Positions 2,754-64,000 of a stretch of DNA of 64,000 nucleotides are shown in pieces (the stretch's first letter is position 1; the number at the start of each line of letters is the position of its first letter). The DNA comes from an uncultured bacterium. GTDB taxonomy: Bacteria; Fidelibacterota; UBA2242. The stretch covers positions 56,253-120,252 of the forward strand of contig CAZPRY010000001.1 of assembly GCA_964589175.1 (NCBI GenBank). Direction: 5' to 3'. Both the position numbers and the translations under genes were made by a program. The notes beneath the pieces were generated by a model. That model saw only the letters and a program-made list of their open reading frames with translations, did no database searches and was not told the origin of the DNA.

Positions 2754-3502
2754 CAAAACGGATTGTACCTTGTCTGGATATAAAAGACGGGCAGACGGTC
2801 AAGGGTGTGAATTTTATTAACATCCGGCATGCCGGCGATCCCTTGGAATTGGGCGCGGCTTATGCCCGACAGGGCGCCGACGAACTGGTGTTCCTGGACA
2901 TCACGGCTTCGGTGGAAAAACGCCGGACCTTTGCCGAACTGGTGAAGCAGATTGCGCTGCATCTGAATATCCCGTTCACAGTCGGCGGCGGGATCCGCAA
3001 CGAGGACGACGTGGCGCGCCTGCTGGATGCCGGGGCCGACAAAATTTCGATCAATACATCCGCGGTCAATCATCCGCAAATGGTGGAGAAACTGGCGAAG
3101 CGCTTCGGCAGCCAGTGCGTTGTGGTGGCGATTGACACCCGGCATACGGAAACCGGGGACATCGTCTACATCCATGGCGGCCGCACGCCAACCGAGCGTA
3201 TCACACAGCAATGGGCGCGTGAAGTGGTTGAACGCGGCGCGGGGGAAATCCTGCTCACGTCCATGGATCATGACGGCACGAAGAACGGCTTTGCGCTGGA
3301 GATCACGCGCGAGCTATCGGAAATGTTGCCGATCCCGATTATCGCTTCGGGTGGCGCGGGAACGAGGGAGCATTTCGCGGAGGTGTTCCGGGAGGGCAAA
3401 GCCGATGCGGCTTTAGCGGCGAGCGTTTTCCATTTCGGTGAAATCCCGATCCCGGATTTGAAGCAATACTTGAAAAACGAAGGAATAGAGGTGCGGCTGT
3501 GA
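2747..3502 (+). CDS. hisF: Imidazole glycerol phosphate synthase, cyclase subunit
   Basis: 251 aa. N-terminus [12 protein letters not shown] and the motifs GADE and ASGGAG identify the HisF TIM barrel. Confidence 0.92.
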
Positions 3503-4092
3503 ATATCGATTTTGACAAAGGCGATGGGCTGGTCCCGGCGATTGTGCAGGATGCCGGGACGGGCAAGGTTCTGATGCTGGGCTATATGAACAAAGAGGCC
3601 CATGAAAAGACACGCAAAACACGTAATGTGACCTTCTTTAGCCGGTCGCGCCAGGAGCTGTGGACCAAGGGCGAAACCTCCGGTAATTATCTGCTTGTAA
3701 AGGAAATTCGGGTCGATTGCGACGGCGATACGCTGCTGATTAAAGCGGAACCCACCGGGCCGACCTGTCACACCGGCAGTGATACCTGTTTCGAAGAAAT
3801 CAATGCGGCCCCCAAGCCGTTTCTGTGGGAACTCGAAAGTGTCATCGCCGACCGGAAAGCCAATCCCACTCCGGAATCCTATACCTGTAAACTGTTCGAA
3901 AAGGGGACCAAAAAAATCGCCCAGAAAGTCGGCGAAGAGGCCACCGAAGTCGTAATCGATGCCGTGGCGAATGACATCCCACGCCTGCAGGAGGAGGTCG
4001 CCGATCTGCTCTATCACCTGCTGGTTTTACTGGCCGAAAAAAATATCTCGCTGGACGAGATTATGACGGTGCTGGAGAAGAGGCATAAATAA
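3499..4092 (+). CDS. hisI: Bifunctional phosphoribosyl-AMP cyclohydrolase / phosphoribosyl-ATP pyrophosphatase
   Basis: 197 aa. The HisI part shows LVPAIVQD...GYMNKEA...CDGD. The HisE part shows [10 protein letters not shown]...[11 protein letters not shown]. This is the last gene of the operon. Confidence 0.9.
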
Positions 4093-4212
4093 AAGCAAGA
4101 ATTCGCCAAGATCAATAGATTTAACGGTCTAAAGTCACGTTTTATAGTGAAAATGCTCTGGCTGATTGTAAAATATTATTGAGATCAGCAAAGAATAAAA
4201 AATACCCTCACT

Positions 4213-4839
4213 TCAGATATCTGCTAACCGACCATGAGAAACGTCGTTTCTTGCAACCTCTATTCTATCTCCAATGCTATTGATTTTTATCTTCTCTCTA
4301 TACGTTTTACTACCTATTGTTTTTAAATGATAAAAACATGTGGTGATAGGAGAAGGAAATAGAATATTATCAATCTCTCGAAATATTCTACCAATATCGT
4401 TATGGGGATCGGCGGCGATAATTTTATACGGTATTGAAAGATTATTGATCTTATTTTTCAACTTTTTTTCATTGAGCAATACAGATGAATGGGTTTTTGC
4501 GTTTTCGCTAATCCAGGAACCATCTGATTTCAGTTTCCCTGATAAAATTCTGAAGAAATATTCGAATCTGGTTAATAGGAAAACGGATGAAATAACTGAT
4601 TGTGATTCAAGAAAATCGCTCTTAGATATTTCCCTTATTGCATATGCTACGTGCTCTTTATATCTATCGGGAAAAATCGAATTTGGTTCTGTTAAATCCA
4701 TATCAAGTGCAACTTGTTCAATGAAGAATTTAACTTCATTGGAACCATTAAACTGACCTATTGAAAGACAATTATTAATGATAAAATCTACTGCCTTTTC
4801 TGTGTTAGTAGATTCTATTGTGTTGTTTCTATTTATCAT
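4213..4839 (-). CDS. Hypothetical protein, HEPN-like (R-x4-H-x-x-R motif at C-terminus); possible Abi/RNase-type effector
   Basis: 208-aa ORF in a markedly AT-rich segment unlike the flanks. The C-terminus reads ARNDVSHGRL, matching the HEPN Rx4-6H signature seen in Abi2/AbiD-F-like and other HEPN RNases. It lies 52 bp downstream of the AAA ATPase on the same strand. There is no signal peptide. Confidence 0.5.
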   Translation of the reverse strand: MINRNNTIESTNTEKAVDFIINNCLSIGQFNGSNEVKFFIEQVALDMDLTEPNSIFPDRYKEHVAYAIREISKSDFLESQSVISSVFLLTRFEYFFRILSGKLKSDGSWISENAKTHSSVLLNEKKLKNKINNLSIPYKIIAADPHNDIGRIFREIDNILFPSPITTCFYHLKTIGSKTYREKIKINSIGDRIEVARNDVSHGRLADI

Positions 4840-4891
4840 ATCTTAAAGAATTCTTGTAGAAAATAATCCTTCATAAATCGGATATCGCCAA

Positions 4892-6016
4892 TTACACAAT
4901 AAAATCATAAAAATGATCTTTAGTAACAATCGCCGTTTCGCTCCCCGGATAGGCGTTCAAAAACGTTTTAGGGATGCGAGTGTTGCGGGTCGGATTCCAC
5001 TTAAATTCAAAAGCGTGTAGTATGCCGTCGTATTCTTCGATGTAATCGATTTCCTGCTGAGCGTGAGTTCGCCAGAAATATTGGTTTACCCAGCGGTTGT
5101 TATAGTGATTGGCTTTGATGCGTTCCGAAATGAGAAAATTCTTCCAGAGTGCTCCAACATCCTGGCGTAGCGCAATCGGGCTGAAATTCTTGATGACGGC
5201 ATTCCGGATGCCGTTGTCGCAGAAATAGATTTTGCGGCTCTTTTTCAGTTCGTTTCTGAGATTCCGGCTCAGGGCCGAGAGTCGAAAAACGATAAAGGCC
5301 TTCTCCAGCAGATCGACATACTTTTCGACCGTTTCGTTATCGGCGCCGATCAACTGCCCCACTTCGCGGTAGGAAACCTCCTGGCCGATTTGCAGGGCCA
5401 GGGCCTGGACCAGTTTTTCCAGAATCACAGGTTTCTTCACCTTCTCCAAGGAGAAAATGTCCTTATACAGGTAACTGCTCGCTAGTAACTGAAGGATCTG
5501 TTTTTCGTCGCCGGCATGGGTCACCACCTCCGGGTAATAACCGTAAATCAGCCGGTGTTCCAGCAGACGCCTTTCCTCCAGCGGACTTGTATAATTTGCC
5601 ATTTCCCCATAGGATAGCGGAAACAGGAAGTATTCGAATTTCCGGCCTGTCAATGGTTCGCGGATTTGATTTGCCAATTCCAGTGACGATGAACCGGTCG
5701 CAATGACCTGCACGTCGGGTAGGTTGTCAACGATAAGTTTCAGTGTTATACCAATGTTGGCAATCCGCTGGGCTTCATCGATAATCAGCAGTTGATTCTT
5801 GCCGATTAGGGTTTTCAGTTGAGTGCTGGTAGTGTTGGATAAAAGACCGCGTACGTCTACTTCATCGCCGTTTAAATAGAGTGTGGGAACTTCAGTCTTT
5901 TGCACGATTCGGTTGACCAGGGTGGTTTTTCCTACCTGCCTTGCGCCCAATATCAGGATTGCTTTGCCCTTAAAAATCTGTTCGGAAATTTTTGATTCGA
6001 GAATACGTGAGATCAT
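4892..6016 (-). CDS. AAA+ ATPase of the DUF4143 family (COG1373) with C-terminal PD-(D/E)xK-like motif
   Basis: Walker A (GARQVGKTTL) and Walker B (LLIIDEAQ) are present. The C-terminal region has D...E-x-K (EIDYIEEYDGILHAFEFK), typical of the nuclease-like DUF4143 domain. The ORF track starts at a TTG at 6043; the ATG at 6016 (MISRILESK...) fits family N-termini better. GC content is intermediate between the AT-rich neighbour and the host genes. Confidence 0.8.
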   Translation of the reverse strand: MISRILESKISEQIFKGKAILILGARQVGKTTLVNRIVQKTEVPTLYLNGDEVDVRGLLSNTTSTQLKTLIGKNQLLIIDEAQRIANIGITLKLIVDNLPDVQVIATGSSSLELANQIREPLTGRKFEYFLFPLSYGEMANYTSPLEERRLLEHRLIYGYYPEVVTHAGDEKQILQLLASSYLYKDIFSLEKVKKPVILEKLVQALALQIGQEVSYREVGQLIGADNETVEKYVDLLEKAFIVFRLSALSRNLRNELKKSRKIYFCDNGIRNAVIKNFSPIALRQDVGALWKNFLISERIKANHYNNRWVNQYFWRTHAQQEIDYIEEYDGILHAFEFKWNPTRNTRIPKTFLNAYPGSETAIVTKDHFYDFIV

Positions 6017-6032
6017 GCGAAAATATAAACAT

Positions 6033-6081
6033 TTGCGATTCAAATCGCAATATTTATATGAATTTTGCGATTACGATCGCA
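6033..6081. promoter_or_regulatory. Two palindromic operator-like sites sharing a TTTGCGATT half-site, immediately upstream of the DUF4143 ATPase gene
   Basis: Site 1 at 6033-6050 is TTGCGATT-CA-AATCGCAA, with 8-bp perfect inverted arms. Site 2 at 6066-6081 is TGCGAT-TACG-ATCGCA. Both lie 17-65 bp upstream of the ATG at 6016 on the minus strand, within an AT-rich promoter-like stretch. Confidence 0.3.
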
Positions 6082-6150
6082 GAATTCATGTTTTTGAATC
6101 ATTTGCCACACTTAGACCTGGTTAATACCGGGACGTAGCTTGAATCGGAT

Positions 6151-6294
6151 TTATTTCGATTTGCGTTTCTTCGGCTTGCGTTCGCAGTAGGGTAGTCCGC
6201 CCTTGGCGTAGTGGTGTGCGCGGCAGGCCTCGCAATATCCGTAGCGGTTGCATTTCTTTTTACGGCAGGGACAATTTTCGATTCGCGGTTCCAT
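6151..6294 (-). CDS. Small Cys/His-rich protein (47 aa), putative zinc-ribbon / metal-binding
   Basis: Not in the ORF track because it is under 60 aa. The reverse-complement translates cleanly to MEPRIENCPCRKKKCNRYGYCEACRAHHYAKGGLPYCERKPKKRKSK*. It has 7 Cys in CPC...C...C..C and HH, with a basic tail. It sits 176 bp downstream of slyD on the same strand. Confidence 0.45.
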   Translation of the reverse strand: MEPRIENCPCRKKKCNRYGYCEACRAHHYAKGGLPYCERKPKKRKSK

Positions 6295-6470
6295 AGTTGA
6301 TCTTCCCCGGAAACATGTTCGGAGCAATTTTTCCTGGATTAAAACTTAATTGCCTTGCGGAGCGATTCAAAATCTGTTGAAATCGAAGAAATCGATAAAT
6401 CCGAAAGCAATGCGCGACTGGCGGGGTATTCCGGTTGCAGCAATCGGAGGAATAATCTCCGGCGGTATCT

Positions 6471-6935
6471 CTAATGAGCGTGGCCGTGATCCAGCTCTTC
6501 AGGTTCGGCCAGGCGGATGTCCACGATTTCGGTTTCGAAGTGCAGAACTTCGCCGGCCAGCGGATGGTTTAGGTCAAGCACGACCTCTGTATCGGTGTAT
6601 GATTTTACCACGACCTCAAACTGCCGTCCATCGTCATTTTGCCCGGTCAGTACCAATCCCTTTTTTACCTCGACATCAGGCGGCATCTCGTCACGGGCGA
6701 TTACCTGATACAACTGCTCGTTCACCGATCCGTAGCCGTCCTCAGGCTGGATCGTTACGGATTTTTTGTCGCCGATTTTCATATCGATCAACTCGTTTTC
6801 GAGGCCCGGTATAATCTGTGAATGCCCGCAGAGGAAGCTGAGCGGTTCGCTGCCTTCGGATGAATCGATAATCTCACCCGAATCGAGGGTGAGCGTATAA
6901 TGCATGGATACGACTGCGTCCTTTTTTATCTGCAT
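6471..6935 (-). CDS. slyD: FKBP-type peptidyl-prolyl cis-trans isomerase SlyD-like with His-rich metal-binding tail
   Basis: FKBP domain (MHYTLTLDSGEIIDSS...PLSFLCG) with an IF-insert region and a C-terminal ELDHGHAH tail. Start chosen at MQIKKD (aa 10 of the track ORF), by analogy with SlyD N-termini. Confidence 0.8.
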   Translation of the reverse strand: MQIKKDAVVSMHYTLTLDSGEIIDSSEGSEPLSFLCGHSQIIPGLENELIDMKIGDKKSVTIQPEDGYGSVNEQLYQVIARDEMPPDVEVKKGLVLTGQNDDGRQFEVVVKSYTDTEVVLDLNHPLAGEVLHFETEIVDIRLAEPEELDHGHAH

Positions 6936-7254
6936 AATAACTCCTTCGTTTGAGCCAAACATGATCGTGACTACAGAGGGAGTCCATGCAGAAAGTCAAC
7001 ACATTCGGCGGTATTGGTAAGCTAATAAAGTCCTTTCATCAAAAATCAGGGCTGGAATATAATGAAAAAAATGTATTTAGCGAATGATTTATTCTTGAGA
7101 CGCGCAGGCTGGACCCGCTCGATGTCAGATTTAAATTTCGGTAAATAATAAAAACGTTTTATCATGTTTACGACGTAATATTGCATAGGGGCCGTTTGGC
7201 GCCAGGGTTTTATAAACGATGTTTTGTTGAGCTGATTAGATCGATATAAAAAGC

Positions 7255-7268
7255 ATCTATTAATAGAT
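7255..7268. promoter_or_regulatory. Perfect 14-bp palindrome ATCTATTAATAGAT in the AT-rich leader upstream of the first LacI gene
   Basis: Seen directly in the sequence. It lies ~118 bp upstream of the start at 7386. A TTGACA-N17-TAGATT sigma70-like pair is at ~7329-7357. It could be an operator for one of the LacI regulators. Confidence 0.25.
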
Positions 7269-7385
7269 ATGTATAAACGGGTGAATTGGGAGAGGCGATT
7301 ATTTTATAATGGTAGCGACAAAAAGGCTTGACAAATATATTTTAATAAAATAGATTAAAACGTTTCGATTATTGGGGAAGGATTT

Positions 7386-8426
7386 ATGGCGACAACCATT
7401 AAAGACATTGCGGAAAAAGCCGGTGTTTCCATCTCGACGGTTTCCTTGATTTTAAACAATAAGGGTCGGGTCGCTCATTCTACCCGGCAGCAGGTTGAGA
7501 CAATTATCCGGGACTTAAACTACCGGCCGCTGCATTCGGCGCGCAAACTGGCAACCCAGATGACCGGAAATGTCGGATACATCATCTGGGAAGAATATTT
7601 TTCCGAAGTGGAAATGTTCTATAGCCAGGTTTTTCTCGGGATGGAATGTGCCGCCCGTGTGAACGATTACTATATACTGTTGACGACGGTCAAGGAGAAG
7701 TTCAATCCGAAAACAGATTTGCCAAGGTTCCTTAAGTATAATGACGTTGACGGAGTCGTTCTGGTGGGCCGGGTGCCGATGACATTGATCGAATACCTGG
7801 ATCATCAGAAGATACCCTTCGTGCTGATCGACTATGAGGTGCCTGGCAAAAATTATAATTATATCAAGATCGACAACTACAACGGGGCTTTTCGGGCAGT
7901 CGAAAACCTTGTTCTGTCAGGCCGGAAAAATATCGCTTTTGTGGGGGGATCCTATTTTCACCCCTCCATAAAAGAGAGATACCGGGGCTACCGCGAGGCC
8001 CTTGAGATTCACAATTTCGAGATATCCAGGATTGAAAAGTACAGTTATCGTAAAAATATAGAGACATCCCGATCCGTCGGGGAGGCCGGTGCGGCCTATC
8101 TTTTGGAAGCCTATCCCGAAATCGACGCCATCTTCGCCTGCACGGATCACACGGCGCTGGGCGTCATCGAAGGTATCCAGAAGTTGAATCGCAAAATCCC
8201 GGATGAAATAGCGATAATCGGGTTTGATGATATATCGCTTGCGATGTACAACAAACCGAAATTATCCACCCTCAGTGTTCCTAAAATGGAAATCGGGAAA
8301 GCGGCCTTCAAATTGCTGAATGAATTGATCAATAATCCCGGGATGGCCCCCCAAACGAGGGTCTTATCCGTCGATCTGATAATTCGGGAAAGCAGTCTGT
8401 CGAATGGTGATGGTAATCGACCTTGA
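7386..8426 (+). CDS. LacI-family transcriptional regulator
   Basis: N-terminal HTH (TIKDIAEKAGVSISTVSLILNN) followed by a periplasmic-binding-protein-like sugar-binding fold. 346 aa. Confidence 0.85.
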   Translation: MATTIKDIAEKAGVSISTVSLILNNKGRVAHSTRQQVETIIRDLNYRPLHSARKLATQMTGNVGYIIWEEYFSEVEMFYSQVFLGMECAARVNDYYILLTTVKEKFNPKTDLPRFLKYNDVDGVVLVGRVPMTLIEYLDHQKIPFVLIDYEVPGKNYNYIKIDNYNGAFRAVENLVLSGRKNIAFVGGSYFHPSIKERYRGYREALEIHNFEISRIEKYSYRKNIETSRSVGEAGAAYLLEAYPEIDAIFACTDHTALGVIEGIQKLNRKIPDEIAIIGFDDISLAMYNKPKLSTLSVPKMEIGKAAFKLLNELINNPGMAPQTRVLSVDLIIRESSLSNGDGNRP

Positions 8427-8471: not shown

Positions 8472-9488
8472 ATGATTACAATTAAAGATATAGCCCAAGC
8501 CGCCGAATGTTCCCTGTCGACCGTATCGAAAGCGATCAATGGCAGAGATGATATCAGCGCCTCGACGCGCGCGCGGATCCTCAAAATCGTTGAAGAATTG
8601 GATTACACTCCCAACGCATTCGGCAAAGGATTGAAAAATAAAAAAACCGAAAATATTGGCGTGATTTTTTCCCGGGAAAGCAGACCTCTGTCATTGAATC
8701 CGTTCTACTCCCGGGTGCTGGAGGGAATAGAAGCCGAATTGGCAATCAACGACTATAATCTGGTCTTGCACATGTTACCTGAAAAATATGACGGCGAGTA
8801 TCCGAAAATGCTTAAAGAGCATAACGTAGACGGCATCATCCTGTTCAGTGCTCTGCATGATCGACTGATCCAGCAGCTGTCGGATGACATGATTCCGATG
8901 GTGCATGTGGATCCCGGTGTGAATTCGGACAGGTGCAGCCAGGTGATCATTGATAATGAACGCGGCGCTTTTCTGGCAACCCAGTATTTGATCCATAATG
9001 GACATAAGAAAATCGCCTTTATATCCCCTGATATTGATCGCGAGAGCTTTCGTCTGCGATATCTCGGATTTCGACGCGCCATGGATCATTATCGTCTGAA
9101 AATGGATGAACGCTACATACGGATAGGCGGGCTGGAACAGGGGTATGAGCAGGTCAGGGATCTGGTGCAATTAAAGAAACGCCCAACAGCCATTTTTATC
9201 ACCAATGATCTCAACGTCATGTACGCCTATCAGGCGATTAAGGACTGTAATCTGACGCTTCCCGATGATATCAGCATCATCGGATTCGATGATATTTCGT
9301 GGGCGAAAAGCGCCACGCCGTCTTTGACCACCATCCGGGTTTATAAGGAGGAGATGGGATCCATCGCCGTCCGGATGCTATTGAGAATTATTAATAACGA
9401 ATTGAATTCTCCGGTGACGACTATGATTCCGGTGAGACTGGTCGAACGAAAATCGGTTAAAAATCTCTCCCAACCGGATGGAACATAG
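8472..9488 (+). CDS. LacI-family transcriptional regulator (second, tandem)
   Basis: HTH motif ITIKDIAQAAECSLSTVSKAING, with a GGAG RBS 8 nt upstream of the ATG at 8472. It is a paralog of the upstream gene. The track ORF starts 21 nt earlier. Confidence 0.85.
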   Translation: MITIKDIAQAAECSLSTVSKAINGRDDISASTRARILKIVEELDYTPNAFGKGLKNKKTENIGVIFSRESRPLSLNPFYSRVLEGIEAELAINDYNLVLHMLPEKYDGEYPKMLKEHNVDGIILFSALHDRLIQQLSDDMIPMVHVDPGVNSDRCSQVIIDNERGAFLATQYLIHNGHKKIAFISPDIDRESFRLRYLGFRRAMDHYRLKMDERYIRIGGLEQGYEQVRDLVQLKKRPTAIFITNDLNVMYAYQAIKDCNLTLPDDISIIGFDDISWAKSATPSLTTIRVYKEEMGSIAVRMLLRIINNELNSPVTTMIPVRLVERKSVKNLSQPDGT

Positions 9489-9549
9489 TGAACATCAGAT
9501 ATCAAAATACACGATAAGATGAACAATATCACACGAGAGGAGGACTGAA

Positions 9550-12500
9550 ATGAAGAGGGCTATTGTATTTTTTTGCGTATGCACCGTTGCCTTGAGCGGG
9601 GGTCTGTTTGCTCAGGTGATTTTTGATTTTGAAACGGATAATGGCGGATTTACACTAAAGTCCGATCCAAATTATGATTTGATTACTTCGGTAGCACAAG
9701 CCAGCGATCCTTCCGGCTTAAGCGGCGGGGCCCTGGCAGTCACCATGGATTTTAATGCATCGACCGGAAAGAAGGGAAATGCCTATGTCGCAGCTTTTGA
9801 TCCCGGAGATGCTCGTGTAATAACTTTTTATGTTTGGTTGCCAAGCGGTATACCGGATTCCACTTACATCAAGTATTTTGCTCAGGATAAAAATTGGACT
9901 TACACCGATGCTCAATTCTGGGTCAGTGCTATTCCCAAAGAAGTCTGGTTTCCATTGCAATTGAACCTGGAGGCTGCAAATATTAAGAGTAGCTCCTTCG
10001 ATGTGGCCGAAGGTGCTCTACAAACTCTTGGAATTCAATTTATCTCCAGTTATGAACACGATGCGGATGCTTCCTGGACCGGCACTGCTTATATCGATAA
10101 TGTTACTCTTTTAGGCGTTAATCCGACAGTGCTGTTTGATTTCGAAAGCGATGATAGTGGGTTTATATTAGCTTACGATTTTTTTACATCTCTGGTGCAC
10201 GCCGCAGATCCAGCCGCTGCAAGTAGTGGTGCTCTGGCAGCCACCCTAAATGCAGATTTGACAGCCAATAAAAAAGGGAATGTATATAAGAATACAAAGA
10301 TTGGCGCAAGTGATGCCCATATGGCAACTGTTTATGTCTGGTGTCCGGCAGACTTACCCAATAACGTCTATTTCAAGTTTTATTTTAAGGATAATAACTG
10401 GACGACCGCGTATTCGAATTATCTGTATTATGCCAGTGCTATACCCAAAGAAGTTTGGTATCCACTGCAATACGATCTGGAAGCAGCCCACCTTAAGAGC
10501 AGTTCTTTCGATGTAGCGGAAGGTGATTTGCAGACGGTGGGGCTTGAGGTGCAATCCTACGGTTTGTCAGGTGCTGACACGCTTTATACCGGCACGATCT
10601 ACATTGATAATATTTCGTTTTTAGGTGTTGAGGTTCCTGATGAAAGACCCAGATATGTCATCGCTGATTTTGAAGATGAAGCCGAAGGAACGGTTGGCTT
10701 TAAAGCCAGTACTTCAGCCGGATATGCAGCGCTTACCAATGTAGCCCGGATAGCCGATCCGACTTCTGAAACAGTCGGTGTGCTCGGTACCGATTGGAAT
10801 TTCAGTCTGGCAACCAAAGGCTGGGCATACAATTCGACCTTTGATCTGCTCTGGGATTCCACCGGGTATGCCGCCGGCGGTCCTCTTGATACCGGGGCCA
10901 CGGCTGTTTCCATAGATATTTTTATTCCCGGCGATTTTCCGGTTTCCGGGGAATCTTTCGGACTTGTTCTGCGTGATCATAAAAACTGGAAATGGTATGA
11001 GAGTAAGTTTACGGTCGATGGATCCAATCTGGTTGCCGGACAGTGGAATACCTTGGAGATAGATGTACTCTATTATTTCGGTCTGGAAAACAAATTTTTC
11101 CCTTACTATACCGTTGATTTTGGAGTACAGATCTCTCATTCCAGCAATAATACCTGGACTGGCAGCATTCTTTTCGATAATGTGACATTGATAGGTGTGG
11201 AAGCACCGGAAGAACCGATTGATGAAACTCCCAAATATGTCGTGGCAGCTTTCGAAAAAGAGGCGGCCGGTGTCCAGGGTTATGCGAAAAGCACAACGGC
11301 AGGTTTCGAAGCCTGCACGGGAGTCGCACGTATTGCCGATCCGACCAGTGTGTCCGAAGGCGTCTTGAGCGGCAGCTGGGATTTCAGCCGCAGCGCGAAA
11401 GGATACATCGGTAACGGCAGTTTCAATCTTTTCTGGGCCGATACGGGTACCGTGGTCGATACCGGCGCCACGGCTATCCGGGTCGACGTTTGGATTCCGG
11501 CTGACTTTCCGGTCTCCGACGGGACACTGGGCCTGGTTCTGCGCGACAAGGTGGGCTGGACCTGGAACGAAACGAAATATCCTCTTAGCGATTCAATAAC
11601 AGTCGTTCCCGGTGCGTGGAACACCTTTTCTTTGGATGTTTTGCAGTATATCTTGAATGGCACGTTTAATCCGTATGGGACGAGTTCCTTTGGTATTCAG
11701 CTGCAGCATTCGAGCAATACCACCTGGCAAGGTGACGTTTATTTCGATAACGTTACTCTGGTGGGAGTCGAAGAACCCGAAGGCGTTTTGGTATCACCGA
11801 TTTCGATTGGAGCGGTCGAGACCTACAGCGATGTTGGGATTCCCTTCGATTATGTCCATATCGTCTGGGTGGATAATACAATCGGTTCCGAAACATACCG
11901 GGTCTACGTGAGCCTGTCCGAAATCACCGATCTGGATGCAGCCGGTGTCACCCGGATCGCGCGTGAAATTCCCCATGGAACGGAATACTGGAATTACCGG
12001 CCCTATAGCCGTACGGCGGAAGAAAATACCTATTATTTCGCCGTGATTGCAATGGGTGCCGACGGTACCCTCAGCGATCTGAATAATGACTGCAAAGTCG
12101 GACCTGTTACGATTACGACTTCGGCTACGGCCAAAGCGTTGTACGATCCGTGGTTTGCCCAATCCTTCGTGTTGGACGGCTTGGATACGGAATTTCTGGA
12201 TATGCACAAAGCCTATTTAATCACCGCCGAAGTGGCCGGGGGAACGGATACTGCCGGCTGGACGCCGGCATCCACCGATATGAGTTTCAAGACTACTTTT
12301 GTGGTTGATGACGATTATCTCTATATCTCCACGGATGTGACCGATAATGATCTGAATGCTTCCGGGAACGAGGCTATCATCGGCGGCCAGGCCTGGATGG
12401 GCGACGCCTTGGAATTCTATATGGGCATCTATGATGTCAATCCGTTGCATCAACTGCACGGTTACCGGGATGTGATGACCGAAGGAACCGGCGATTACCG

Positions 12501-62002: not shown

Positions 62003-63334
62003 ATGGATTTGTTCAAGCAAGATAAAAAACGGGAAGAGATCTTGGCGCCGCTGGCCGAGCGGATGCGTCCGGTGCGGGCGGAAGATTTTATCGGTCAGCA
62101 GGAGATATTCGGGGAGGGCAAAATCCTGCGGCAGGTGCTCCAGGCCCAAAAGGTTTTTTCGATGATTCTGTGGGGACCGCCCGGTTCCGGTAAAACCACA
62201 CTGGCGAAGCTCGTTTCGCGGCAGGTTCAGGCCCAATTCTACCAGGTCAATGCGGTTGCGGCGGGCGTGAAAGACATCCGCAAGGTTATCGATCAGTCGC
62301 AGGTAAACCGCCGTAATGGTCTGCGGACAATCCTGTTCATCGATGAAATTCACCGATTCAATAAAGCCCAGCAGGACGCCCTGCTGCATGCCGTGGAAGA
62401 TGGTTCTGTTACTCTGATCGGCGCAACCACGGAGAATCCGTCTTTCGAGGTCATTGCGCCGCTGCTCTCACGCTGCAGGGTGTTAAAATTGCACTATTTA
62501 TCAGAAGAAGAACTTGGTCAAATTCTGGATGCGGCATTGGCGAGAGACCCGGTGCTGCGGGAGTATCGCGCCGAGATTGATGCTGAAACCCGGGCGTTTT
62601 TATTGGGACAGGTCGGCGGCGATGCCCGCAAATTGCTCAACACCCTCGAAATCTGTCTGCAATTGTCGGCTGTCGCGGCCGGCGAGATCCTGCAGATTCG
62701 CCTGCCCCTGGTGCGGGAAGCGCTGCAGCAGAAGCATCTTCTCTACGATAAAAAAGGGGACTACCATTACGATATCATCTCCGCCTTTATCAAAAGCATC
62801 CGCGGCAGTGATCCCGATGCCGGACTCTACTGGCTGTCAGTGATGCTCGAAGGCGGCGAGGATCCGCTGTTTATTGCCAGACGACTGATCATCCTGGCCA
62901 GTGAAGATGTCGGCAATGCGGCACCGCTGGCGTTAAACATCATGGTTTCGGGGTATCAGGCCGTGCACGCGATCGGCATGCCCGAAGGCGCCATCGTCCT
63001 GGCTCAAATGACGACCTACCTGGCATCCCTGCCCAAAAGCAATGCCTCCTATCTGGGACTGCAAGCGGCATTGGCAGAAGTACGGGGGGGAGAAGCTCCG
63101 GACGTTCCGCTTCACCTGCGGAATGCCCCCACCGGGCTGATGAAAGCCATGAATTACGGTAAAGATTATCAGTATGCTCACGATCATCCCGGCCATTTTG
63201 TGCAGGAAAACTATTTTCCCCGGGATGTGCAACCGCGGGCTTTCTACCAGCCTACGGAACAGGGCAAAGAACTGTCGATCCGCAATCATCTCAGGGAATT
63301 ATGGGGGAATAGATATAGTAGCAGTAGTAAATAA
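62003..63334 (+). CDS. rarA: Replication-associated recombination protein A (MgsA/RarA AAA+ ATPase)
   Basis: 443 aa. Walker A is GPPGSGKTT and Walker B is [11 protein letters not shown]. The MgsA C-terminal domain is conserved throughout. Confidence 0.9.
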
Positions 63335-63619
63335 GAATAACAATATTTTGTATAATTATGTAAATATACGATTATTAGCGACATAACCGGCAAGTGTTTT
63401 AGATTATTATTAACTATTCCCCAATTGGATAATTTCTGTTAAATACAATTGGGCGCTTAATAATGTCATGCCAATATTTTCCCGGATATTTTGATGTACA
63501 AGTACATATTTATATTTAGATGATTATAAACACAAAATATTTTTTATTACATGACTTGACATTTTTAATTATTTCTATTAGTTTGAGTGGTAGAAATAAA
63601 ACCCTGGAGGGTCAGGTAA

Positions 63620-63865
63620 ATGAAAAGGAAAATTGTCCGTGTGGGTGCGAGTTTATGTATATTATTGCCCAAAGATGTTATCAAAAGCATGGATTGGGAC
63701 TTTGGCGATACGGTTGACCTGATACTGGATGAGGAAAGCGAGAAGGTAATCCTAAAGAATCCCCGAGAAGAAAAGGATGAGAAGCAGACCTACCTGGAAG
63801 ACTTCGATGCGTTTTTGCGGGAATATGAGAACGTGTTAACCGAAGTGGATATTCGCAAAGAGTAA
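63620..63865 (+). CDS. SpoVT/AbrB-domain small protein (MazE/AbrB-like antitoxin or regulator)
   Basis: 81 aa. MKRKIVRVGASLCILLPKDVIKSMDWDFGDTVDLILDEESEKVILKNP matches the swapped-hairpin AbrB/MazE pattern (vkrwGnS.av.iP...l.......d.v.l..........). A GGAGGG RBS lies 9 nt upstream. The upstream 285 bp is very AT-rich. Confidence 0.5.
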   Translation: MKRKIVRVGASLCILLPKDVIKSMDWDFGDTVDLILDEESEKVILKNPREEKDEKQTYLEDFDAFLREYENVLTEVDIRKE

Positions 63866-63890
63866 GCTAAGGGAATGCTTTGAGGTAAAC

Positions 63891-64000
63891 ATGAAAAGGA
63901 AAATAATCAGAGTAGGATCGAGTAGAGGCGTACTGTTGCCGCGCGAAGTTACGCGCGCCATGAGCTGGGATTTCGGAACGGAGATTGATCTGAATGTGGA
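63891..64000 (+). CDS. Second, tandem paralog of the SpoVT/AbrB-domain small protein (3' end outside window)
   Basis: MKRKIIRVGSSRGVLLPREVTRAMSWDFGTEIDLNV... shares register and motif with the preceding gene. It starts 26 nt after that gene's stop. Confidence 0.45.
   Translation, partial: MKRKIIRVGSSRGVLLPREVTRAMSWDFGTEIDLNV

What the first reader, a model, noticed from the sequence alone, without database searches (positions are those of the whole stretch)
4100..6100. AT-rich two-gene insertion after the his operon: DUF4143 AAA ATPase (with PD-(D/E)xK-like tail) + small HEPN-like protein, a candidate uncharacterised defence/abortive-infection module
Seen directly: the 4213-4839 gene lies in DNA far more AT-rich than the his operon on one side and slyD on the other, and the ATPase gene is intermediate. 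This fits horizontal acquisition, wedged between conserved housekeeping genes. The ATPase has Walker A/B plus a C-terminal D...ExK nuclease-like motif. The 208-aa partner ends in ARNDVSHGRL, a HEPN Rx4-6H RNase signature. An NTPase/nuclease sensor paired with a HEPN effector is the logic of many anti-phage systems, but I do not recognise this particular pairing as a named system. The two genes are co-oriented 52 bp apart, and the tandem palindromes at 6033-6081 suggest tight repression, as expected for a toxic module.
Basis: partly seen in the sequence, partly recalled or inferred. Interest (0 to 1): 0.62.

Follow-up and report, generated by a model that had tools for sequence, protein, structure and literature searches.

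The report
Known defence-candidate ATPase beside broken HEPN-like gene
These are two unrelated accessory genes that happen to be neighbours, not a two-gene defence module: a long-resident, already catalogued single-gene defence candidate (PADLOC PDC-S01) with its own conserved control element, and a recently inserted AT-rich HEPN-like gene that a premature stop codon has cut short.

Summary
The sequence features are real. There are two co-oriented ORFs 52 bp apart, a very AT-rich small gene, Walker A/B and D..ExK motifs, an Rx4H motif and tandem palindromes.

- None of 55 loci carrying a homolog of the small protein has a DUF4143 ATPase.
- In a related lineage, the 73-74% identical ATPase ortholog lies 8 bp from hisIE with no small gene between them.

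The ATPase matches PADLOC PDC-S01 over its full length (E 6.5e-169). PDC-S01 is a very common, untested single-gene defence candidate. The ATPase has host-like composition.

The small gene is the only compositional outlier (GC 0.32, z = -4.2). It belongs to a rare family found in no catalogue, with good but not conclusive HEPN hallmarks. An in-frame TGA replaces a conserved Ser codon and removes the last core helix. The stop is present in all 11 contigs that carry this ATPase. The gene is probably an inactivated solo toxin-like gene.

New here: the tandem palindromes travel with ATPase orthologs across phyla at a fixed 32-33 nt period, and their half-sites drift as the protein diverges. This suggests autoregulation through the ATPase's own winged helix.

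The parts
3499..4092 (+). hisIE, the last gene of the his operon. It is convergent with the two genes under study and serves as the context anchor.
   Evidence: ORF; Pfam PRA-CH/PRA-PH; 78-80% identity to Candidatus Neomarinimicrobiota MAGs.
4093..4891 (.). A 799-bp AT-rich segment between the hisIE and ATPase stop codons. In the related lineage L145/L146 the same interval is 8 bp, so this is a single-gene insertion.
   Evidence: GC; 8-bp junction in relatives.
4096..4112 (.). Left arm of an imperfect 17-nt inverted repeat that brackets the insert (14/17 complementary). It may mark a cassette end.
   Evidence: I1. In one search, 13 of 2000 shuffles reach this level.
4840..4856 (.). Right arm of the same inverted repeat.
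4213..4839 (-). Truncated HEPN-like gene (208 aa), a member of a rare family found in no catalogue.
4549..4563 (-). E93-x3-R97, the Ex3[KR] motif of HEPN helix 2. In 54 family members E is present in 53 and R or K in 53.
   Evidence: The hallmark is described in PMC3710099.
4234..4251 (-). R197-N-D-V-S-H202, the Rx4H motif. In 54 family members R is present in 54, H in 53, and the residue after R is N, D or H in 49.
4213..4215 (-). Premature in-frame TGA, at the position where the conserved Ser follows ...GDI in all 24 homolog loci whose tail could be read.
   Evidence: TGA is a normal stop in this organism (13 of 42 genes). The stop is present in all contigs examined.
4138..4212 (-). Untranslated remnant of helix 4, still in frame: SEGIFYSLLISIIFYNQPEHFHYKT. 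It matches the family consensus SEAVFYGLLTGIVFYNQ at 11 of 17 positions.
4892..6016 (-). PDC-S01-type ATPase-nuclease (374 aa): AAA_14 NTPase, helical lid, winged helix and a DUF4143 PD-(D/E)xK domain.
5921..5947 (-). Walker A, G24-x-R-Q-x-G-K-T-T32.
   Evidence: invariant columns.
5774..5791 (-). Walker B, hhhhD80-E81.
5222..5431 (-). Predicted winged-helix DNA-binding domain (residues 196-265: three helices plus a beta wing).
4922..5158 (-). PD-(D/E)xK nuclease-like domain (residues 287-365) with invariant D324, E337 and K339.
   Evidence: DUF4143 is listed in the PD-(D/E)xK superfamily in PMC3424549.
6066..6081 (.). Distal operator-like palindrome, TGCGAT-TACG-ATCGCA.
6034..6049 (.). Proximal operator-like palindrome, TGCGAT-TCAA-ATCGCA. 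It overlaps a promoter-like TTGCGA-17-TATATT that ends 6 nt before the ATG.

Best explanation
Two independent accessory genes lie side by side.

(1) The ATPase is a long-term resident next to the his operon. It combines an AAA+/STAND-like NTPase, a winged helix and a PD-(D/E)xK nuclease-like domain, and it belongs to the abundant, horizontally mobile, single-gene PADLOC candidate PDC-S01. It carries its own promoter-proximal pair of 16-bp palindromes at a 32-nt period. I infer that the ATPase's own winged helix binds them and represses its own transcription. I also infer that NTP-dependent switching or oligomerisation licenses the nuclease domain.

(2) Later, an AT-rich segment of about 800 bp carrying one gene was inserted between the ATPase and hisIE stop codons. 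That gene belongs to a rare family of solo proteins of about 206 aa. These most likely form a HEPN-type metal-independent RNase fold, with Ex3R in helix 2 and Rx4H at the end of helix 3. In this organism a nonsense codon just after the catalytic motif removes helix 4. The copy is therefore most likely an inactivated toxin-like gene, not a working partner of the ATPase.

Shown here: composition, synteny, lack of co-occurrence, the truncation, motif conservation and conservation of the operator architecture.
Inferred: RNase activity, loss of function, autoregulation and any anti-phage role.
For: - ATPase identity: PADLOC PDC-S01 at E 6.5e-169 over 373 of 375 profile positions, and Pfam AAA_14 plus DUF4143. 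PDC-S01 is described as a very common, untested single-gene candidate made of an ATPase fused to PD-(D/E)xK (PMC12988326; bioRxiv 10.1101/2024.01.29.577857).
- Composition: ATPase z about -1, small gene z = -4.2 and -4.4.
- Synteny: in L145 and L146 the ATPase ortholog (73-74% identity) is convergent with hisIE and their stops are 8 bp apart. The His proteins are 66-82% identical, so divergence is comparable.
- No co-occurrence: none of 55 loci with a small-protein homolog gives a tblastn hit to the ATPase. No neighbour family is shared beyond near-identical genomes. Neighbours are heterogeneous.
- Truncation: (6 residues after the H here, at least 23 in the other 53 members). TGA is an ordinary stop in this organism. 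The stop is present in all 11 contigs retrieved through the ATPase sequence, so the sample was not biased towards truncated copies.
- Operator: the tandem sites are conserved in window, L144-L148 across five different genomic contexts. The same architecture with a 32-33 nt period but different half-sites appears in L150, L151 and L155. The TGCG/CGCA core never varies, and the inner positions change without compensation. A winged helix is present in the ATPase model.
Against: - Loss of function is inferred from missing helix 4 and was not measured. The tail is still in frame and conserved, so the stop is recent, or read-through cannot be excluded.
- The two closest hisIE relatives (L017, L018; 78-80%) have neither gene downstream. 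The ATPase's ancestry at this site therefore rests on one related lineage (L145/L146), plus L147, whose contig ends inside the gene.
- Autoregulation rests on about ten loci. No binding protein was identified.
- No PDC-S01 member has been tested against phage in the literature I could search.
- The 52-bp spacing and shared orientation still allow co-transcription of the two genes.
Confidence: 0.68

Rival explanations
1. One reading: the ATPase-nuclease (sensor) and the HEPN protein (effector) form one two-gene defence or abortive-infection module that was acquired together.
For: The genes are co-oriented and 52 bp apart, so co-transcription is possible. NTPase plus HEPN pairings exist among defence systems (general knowledge; PMC3710099, lists HEPN fusions to ATPases). 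The ATPase is a defence candidate.
Against: None of 55 small-protein loci carries an ATPase, and there is no conserved neighbour. ATPase orthologs in window-like (L145/L146), T2SS (L144), plasmid (L154-L157) and other contexts lack the small gene. The two genes differ in composition. The small gene is truncated. PADLOC defines PDC-S01 as a single-gene candidate.
Confidence: 0.04
2. The small gene still works as a stand-alone HEPN toxin or defence gene. Either the 208-aa product is sufficient, or TGA read-through restores helix 4.
For: The catalytic R and H and the Ex3R motif are retained. The 25-codon tail is still open and matches the consensus at 11 of 17 positions. The allele appears fixed in all sampled contigs.
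Against: Helix 4 is a core element of the HEPN bundle (PMC3710099) and is present in all 53 other members. TGA is a normal stop here. A second lesion, a 17-nt indel over the start codon, segregates in the population, which fits relaxed constraint. There is no evidence of recoding signals.
Confidence: 0.12
3. The small-protein family is not a HEPN RNase. It is an unrelated helical protein in which the R-x4-H-G motif serves some other role, such as ligand or nucleic-acid binding.
Confidence: 0.2
4. The tandem palindromes are RNA or DNA hairpins, for example a terminator for the upstream slyD and small-ORF transcript or a leader structure. They are not protein operators.
For: The minus-strand RNA folds into two strong hairpins (-36.9 kcal/mol, z = -4.4). 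The scanner lists terminator-like hits there.
Against: The element follows the ATPase gene into unrelated upstream contexts. The core half-sites are invariant, and inner stem positions change by breaking pairs with no compensatory change in the core stems. The fixed 32-33 nt period and drifting half-sites are typical of operators. There is no T-run after the hairpins on the gene's strand, and no Rfam family matches.
Confidence: 0.12

Closest known systems
PADLOC PDC-S01 (phage defence candidate, single gene; Pfam AAA_14 + DUF4143, COG1373)
   Same: Full-length HMM match at E 6.5e-169. Same domain architecture, an ATPase fused to a PD-(D/E)xK domain. Occurs alone with no conserved partner.
HEPN superfamily (Anantharaman et al. 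2013), nearest weak profile hits HEPN_MAE_28990 (PF18737) and HEPN_Apea (PF18739)
   Same: All-alpha fold. Rx4H sits at the end of the penultimate helix and the following loop, a polar residue follows R, and Ex3R lies in an upstream long helix. The nearest solved folds are Csm6 HEPN and MNT-associated HEPN toxins.
   Different: No HEPN model reaches its threshold. There is an extra N-terminal helical region and a helical insert of about 60 residues. The protein is solo: no MNT, ParB/methylase, R-M, ABC ATPase or CRISPR partner. The family is absent from the phage, plasmid and viral-contig collections searched. The window copy lacks helix 4.
STAND NTPases and antiviral Avs proteins; archaeal AAA+ ATPases SSO1545 (2fna) and PAB2304 (2qen)
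   Different: There is no C-terminal repeat or sensor domain, and the protein is only 374 aa. Membership of STAND proper was not established; similarity to Cdc6/ORC is nearly as high.
Autoregulated toxin or defence genes with tandem operators overlapping the promoter (for example type II TA autoregulation)
   Same: Two dyad-symmetric sites three helical turns apart overlie a promoter-like sequence immediately upstream of the regulated gene.
   Different: No separate regulator or antitoxin gene travels with the ATPase, so the DNA-binding function would have to reside in the ATPase itself. This is an inference.

Membership tests
PADLOC PDC-S01 | Full-length match to a PDC-S01 profile HMM | tested here: met
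   PDLC04789 at E 6.5e-169, 559.9 bits, residues 10-382 of the 383-aa ORF against profile positions 1-373 of 375.
PADLOC PDC-S01 | Single-gene system with no obligatory partner | tested here: met
   Orthologs in at least 10 different contexts share no neighbouring gene. L145 and L146 lack the small gene.
PADLOC PDC-S01 | Anti-phage activity | not testable with these tools
   The literature calls these PDCs untested candidates.
P-loop AAA+ NTPase (AAA_14) | Intact Walker A (GxxxxGKT) and Walker B (hhhhDE) | tested here: met
   G24, G29, K30, T31, D80 and E81 are invariant in 30 homologs. Pfam AAA_14 at E 6.9e-29.
PD-(D/E)xK nuclease superfamily (DUF4143) | Conserved D...(D/E)xK on an alpha-beta-beta-beta-alpha-beta core | tested here: met
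   DUF4143 at E 3e-40. D324, E337 and K339 are invariant. The model shows H287-305, E311-317, E322-329, E332-339, H350-355 and E360-365. The family is listed in PMC3424549. Nuclease activity was not tested.
HEPN superfamily | Conserved Rx4-6H motif with a polar (N/D/H) residue after R | tested here: met
   Among 54 members R is present in 54, H in 53, and N/D/H after R in 49.
HEPN superfamily | [quoted passage not shown] | tested here: met
   In the AF2 model of P0003 (pLDDT 96.2) there is a helix at 168-179 containing R176, H181 in the loop at 180-186, and a last helix at 187-203. The criterion comes from PMC3710099.
HEPN superfamily | Upstream acidic residue in an Ex3[KR] motif (helix 2) | tested here: met
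   E84 is present in 53 of 54 members and R/K88 in 53 of 54, within the long helix 70-91.
HEPN superfamily | Fold similarity to solved HEPN domains | tested here: inconclusive
HEPN superfamily | Match to a curated HEPN family profile above its threshold | tested here: not met
   Best hits are HEPN_MAE_28990 at E 0.027 (15.1 bits against a cut-off of 26.8) and HEPN_Apea at E 0.0011 in one of 54 members. If this is HEPN, it is a family that no catalogue lists.
HEPN superfamily (the window copy specifically) | Complete four-helix core including helix 4 | tested here: not met
   The stop comes 6 residues after H202, whereas all other members have at least 23 residues there.
Two-gene ATPase + HEPN defence module or toxin-antitoxin pair | Conserved adjacency of the two gene families | tested here: not met
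   0 of 55 loci, no conserved neighbour, and the ATPase occurs alone at the same site in L145 and L146.

The most novel reading that the evidence does not exclude
PDC-S01 ATPase-nucleases are self-contained, self-repressing mobile genes. Their own winged helix binds a tandem dyad operator (32-33 nt period) that moves with the gene between phyla and co-evolves with the protein. Separately, the 206-aa proteins define a previously uncatalogued family of solo HEPN RNases, of which this genome holds a freshly inactivated copy.
Probability: 0.35. Interest if true: 0.45.

Novelty: new member of a known kind. Interest (0 to 1): 0.3.

Why it matters
- It removes a false lead. Adjacency plus AT-richness looked like a new ATPase-HEPN defence system, but comparative context shows chance neighbours.
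- It adds a small, rare family to the HEPN-like repertoire: 119 clusters at 50% identity among 1.84 billion proteins. That family is absent from Pfam, NCBIfam, PADLOC and PHROGs.
- It gives the abundant but untested PDC-S01 candidate a concrete, testable regulatory feature: a portable tandem operator with a likely autorepressor. That feature could help in expressing and assaying these genes.

Tried and rejected
- Foldseek of the small-protein model against the PDB gave no significant hit.
- The afdb50 library was unavailable.
- A profile of the family against PDB sequences gave only a chance-level hit.
- hhalign of the family against a single PF05168 HEPN sequence from L014 was uninformative. 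A proper profile-profile test against HEPN families could not be run.
- PADLOC and PHROG scans of 54 family members found nothing.
- NCBIfam found nothing for the small protein.
- Rfam found no match across 3900-7400.
- The ATPase has no sequence relative in the PDB.
- The small protein has no relatives in the plasmid, phage or IMG/VR collections.
- A scan of viral contigs for the exact operator pattern gave 0 hits.
- The search for an empty site in the nearest genomes failed. L017, L018 and L019 all diverge immediately downstream of hisIE, so they neither confirm nor refute the insertion. The informative comparison came from the ATPase orthologs instead.
- Recoding of TGA was rejected because 13 of 42 window genes, including hisB, hisH and hisF, end in TGA.
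- Assembly error at the stop codon was rejected because independent assemblies are identical there.
Full report
**What is in the sequence**

The minus strand carries four genes in order: slyD (6962-6471), an uncalled Cys-rich small ORF (6327-6151), an ATPase gene and a 208-aa gene (4839-4213). This row converges on the end of the his operon, where hisIE occupies 3499-4092 on the plus strand. The gap between the ATPase and the small gene is 52 bp.

The ATPase ORF formally runs to a TTG at 6043. Gene callers on identical metagenome contigs and the PADLOC profile both start it at ATG 6016, giving 374 aa.

GC falls to 0.31-0.35 across 4050-4950, against 0.50-0.60 in the his genes. Against 42 long ORFs of the window:
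- The small gene has GC 0.321 and GC3 0.268 (z = -4.2 and -4.4). It is the extreme outlier.
- The ATPase has GC 0.472 and GC3 0.571 (z = -1.0 and -0.7). It is host-like.

Only the small gene therefore looks recently foreign.

**The organism**

The nearest HisIE sequences in GTDB species representatives are Candidatus Neomarinimicrobiota MAGs, at 78-80% identity. The neighbourhood has TonB-dependent receptor and T9SS-tail genes. The same locus recurs almost base for base in many metagenome assemblies.

**The ATPase**

Pfam gives AAA_14 (E 6.9e-29) plus DUF4143 (E 3e-40). PADLOC gives a full-length match to PDC-S01 (E 6.5e-169).

PDC-S01 is a phage defence candidate predicted by guilt-by-embedding and not tested experimentally (bioRxiv 10.1101/2024.01.29.577857). 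It is reported as the fourth most common defence call across prokaryotes, a single gene with an ATPase fused to a PD-(D/E)xK domain (PMC12988326). DUF4143 was placed in the PD-(D/E)xK superfamily in 2012 (PMC3424549).

Walker A, Walker B and D324...E337-x-K339 are invariant in 30 homologs. More than 8000 proteins match at E <= 1e-50, and 62-74% identical copies carry names from Deltaproteobacteria, Calditrichota, Gammaproteobacteria, Actinomycetota, Bacteroidota, KSB1 and Marinimicrobia. The gene is therefore highly conserved and horizontally mobile.

**The small protein**

It has no above-threshold match in Pfam, NCBIfam, PADLOC or PHROGs. The only weak hit for the window copy is HEPN_MAE_28990 (E 0.027). 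One other family member weakly hits HEPN_Apea (E 0.0011).

The family is rare. The word-indexed search found 17 proteins. A full profile search found 119 representatives at 50% identity among 1.84 billion proteins.

In 54 diverse members the conserved positions are:

| Feature | Members (of 54) |
|---|---|
| R of the Rx4H motif | 54 |
| H of the Rx4H motif | 53 |
| G after the H | 54 |
| N, D or H directly after the R | 49 |
| E of the upstream Ex3[RK] motif | 53 |
| R or K of the Ex3[RK] motif | 53 |

A family-based AlphaFold model is confident (pLDDT 96.2, pTM 0.92) and all-alpha. R lies at the end of the penultimate helix, H lies in the following loop, and a final helix of 17 residues follows.

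**The window copy is truncated**

All homologs continue after ...HG.WGD(I/V/M) with S-[AS]-E-x-x-F-Y-G-L-x-T-x-x-V-F-Y-N-Q, which is helix 4. The window has TGA exactly at the first Ser codon (4213-4215). It then continues in frame with SEGIFYSLLISIIFYNQ... for 25 codons.

Supporting observations:
- TGA is an ordinary stop in this organism, used by 13 of 42 genes including hisB, hisH and hisF.
- The stop is present in eight assemblies retrieved through the small protein.
- It is also present in all 11 contigs retrieved independently through the ATPase sequence.
- One of those contigs (L163) carries a second lesion, a 17-nt deletion across the start codon.

Helix 4 is a core element of the HEPN bundle, so the 208-aa product is most likely non-functional. 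The well-preserved tail indicates that the mutation is recent.

**Are the two genes a module? No.**

1. tblastn with the ATPase finds nothing in any of the 55 loci that encode a small-protein homolog. All-against-all comparison of their neighbours finds no shared family other than among near-identical genomes.
2. Annotated neighbours of the homologs are heterogeneous. They include IleRS/AhpC, ADH and a 5'-3' exonuclease, a methyltransferase, hemerythrin, DUF4145, a PLD-like protein and a PolB-exonuclease-like protein.
3. ATPase orthologs show no small gene in a T2SS operon (L144), in plasmids (L154-L157) or in other contexts.
4. In L145 and L146, a related lineage whose His proteins are 66-82% identical, the 73-74% identical ATPase sits in the same convergent position. 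Only 8 bp separate its stop from the hisIE stop.

The ATPase is therefore older at this site, and the 799 bp at 4093-4891 are a later single-gene insertion. The insert is bracketed by an imperfect 17-nt inverted repeat (4096-4112 and 4840-4856, 14/17 complementary). Only 13 of 2000 shuffles do as well. This may mark cassette ends, but I could not take it further.

Caveat: the two closest hisIE relatives (L017, L018) have neither gene downstream. The ATPase's presence at this site is therefore patchy among relatives.

**The palindromes**

TGCGAT-N4-ATCGCA occurs twice, 32 nt apart (6034-6049 and 6066-6081), and nowhere else in the window. The proximal copy overlaps a promoter-like TTGCGA-17-TATATT that ends 6 nt before the ATG.

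The element is conserved upstream of orthologs in five different genomic contexts, including a deltaproteobacterial T2SS operon. In these, TGCG and CGCA never vary, while the inner stem positions change by breaking pairs and never by compensation.

More distant orthologs (50-59% identity) keep two sites at a 32-33 nt period, but with other half-sites:
- L150: TGGGAT/ATCCCA
- L151: TTCGAT/ACCGAA
- L155 (a Treponema plasmid): a 32-nt tandem repeat containing TCGAAAA
- L154: a degenerate version

No other gene travels with the ATPase, and the protein has a winged helix. The simplest explanation is autoregulation by the ATPase itself. The hairpin or terminator alternative is less likely.

**Verdict**

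The proposed two-gene defence module is not there. The region holds a known single-gene defence candidate, now with a newly noted portable operator, next to a recently acquired and recently broken copy of a rare, uncatalogued HEPN-like gene. Interest is modest.

Noticed in passing
window 6017-6100; L144-L148, L150, L151, L154, L155 upstream of the ATPase gene: The tandem operator-like element (two dyads at a 32-33 nt period) travels with PDC-S01 ATPase orthologs across phyla and plasmids. Its half-site sequence drifts as the protein diverges, which suggests self-regulation.
   Followed up: partly
window 4096-4112 and 4840-4856: An imperfect 17-nt inverted repeat (14/17 complementary, containing GAATTC) sits at both ends of the roughly 800-bp AT-rich insert. 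Only 13 of 2000 shuffles reach this match. It may mark the termini of a mobile cassette.
   Followed up: partly
L163:1164-1260 versus window 4828-4844: One metagenome variant of the same locus has a 17-nt deletion that removes the small gene's start codon and fuses it to an upstream ATG, giving a 214-aa product. This is a second lesion in the same gene, alongside the shared premature stop.
   Followed up: yes
window 6151-6327 (-): An uncalled Cys-rich, Lys-rich small ORF (47-58 aa, CPCRKKKCNRYGYCEACRAHHYAKGGLPYCE...) lies between slyD and the ATPase. Its composition is host-like, and it has no Pfam or NCBIfam match.
   Followed up: no
window 63100-63900: This is the second most AT-rich stretch of the window (GC about 0.34-0.37). 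It contains an 81-aa ORF at 63620-63865(+) whose N-terminus looks like an AbrB/MazE/SpoVT-type antitoxin. A partner gene may lie beyond the window end.
   Followed up: no
L102:5136-5822, L139:3770-5974, L001:3044-3811 and 9488-10303: Some homologs of the small protein lie near other accessory or defence-like genes: DUF4145 (a HEPN family), a PLD-like nuclease, DUF3800 and DUF2971. None of these is conserved across loci.
   Followed up: partly
L017, L018, L019 downstream of hisIE: The region downstream of the his operon is a synteny breakpoint among Neomarinimicrobiota-like genomes. Each relative has different genes there: glycoside hydrolases, a thioesterase-like protein, or an NAD-dependent epimerase.
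   Followed up: partly
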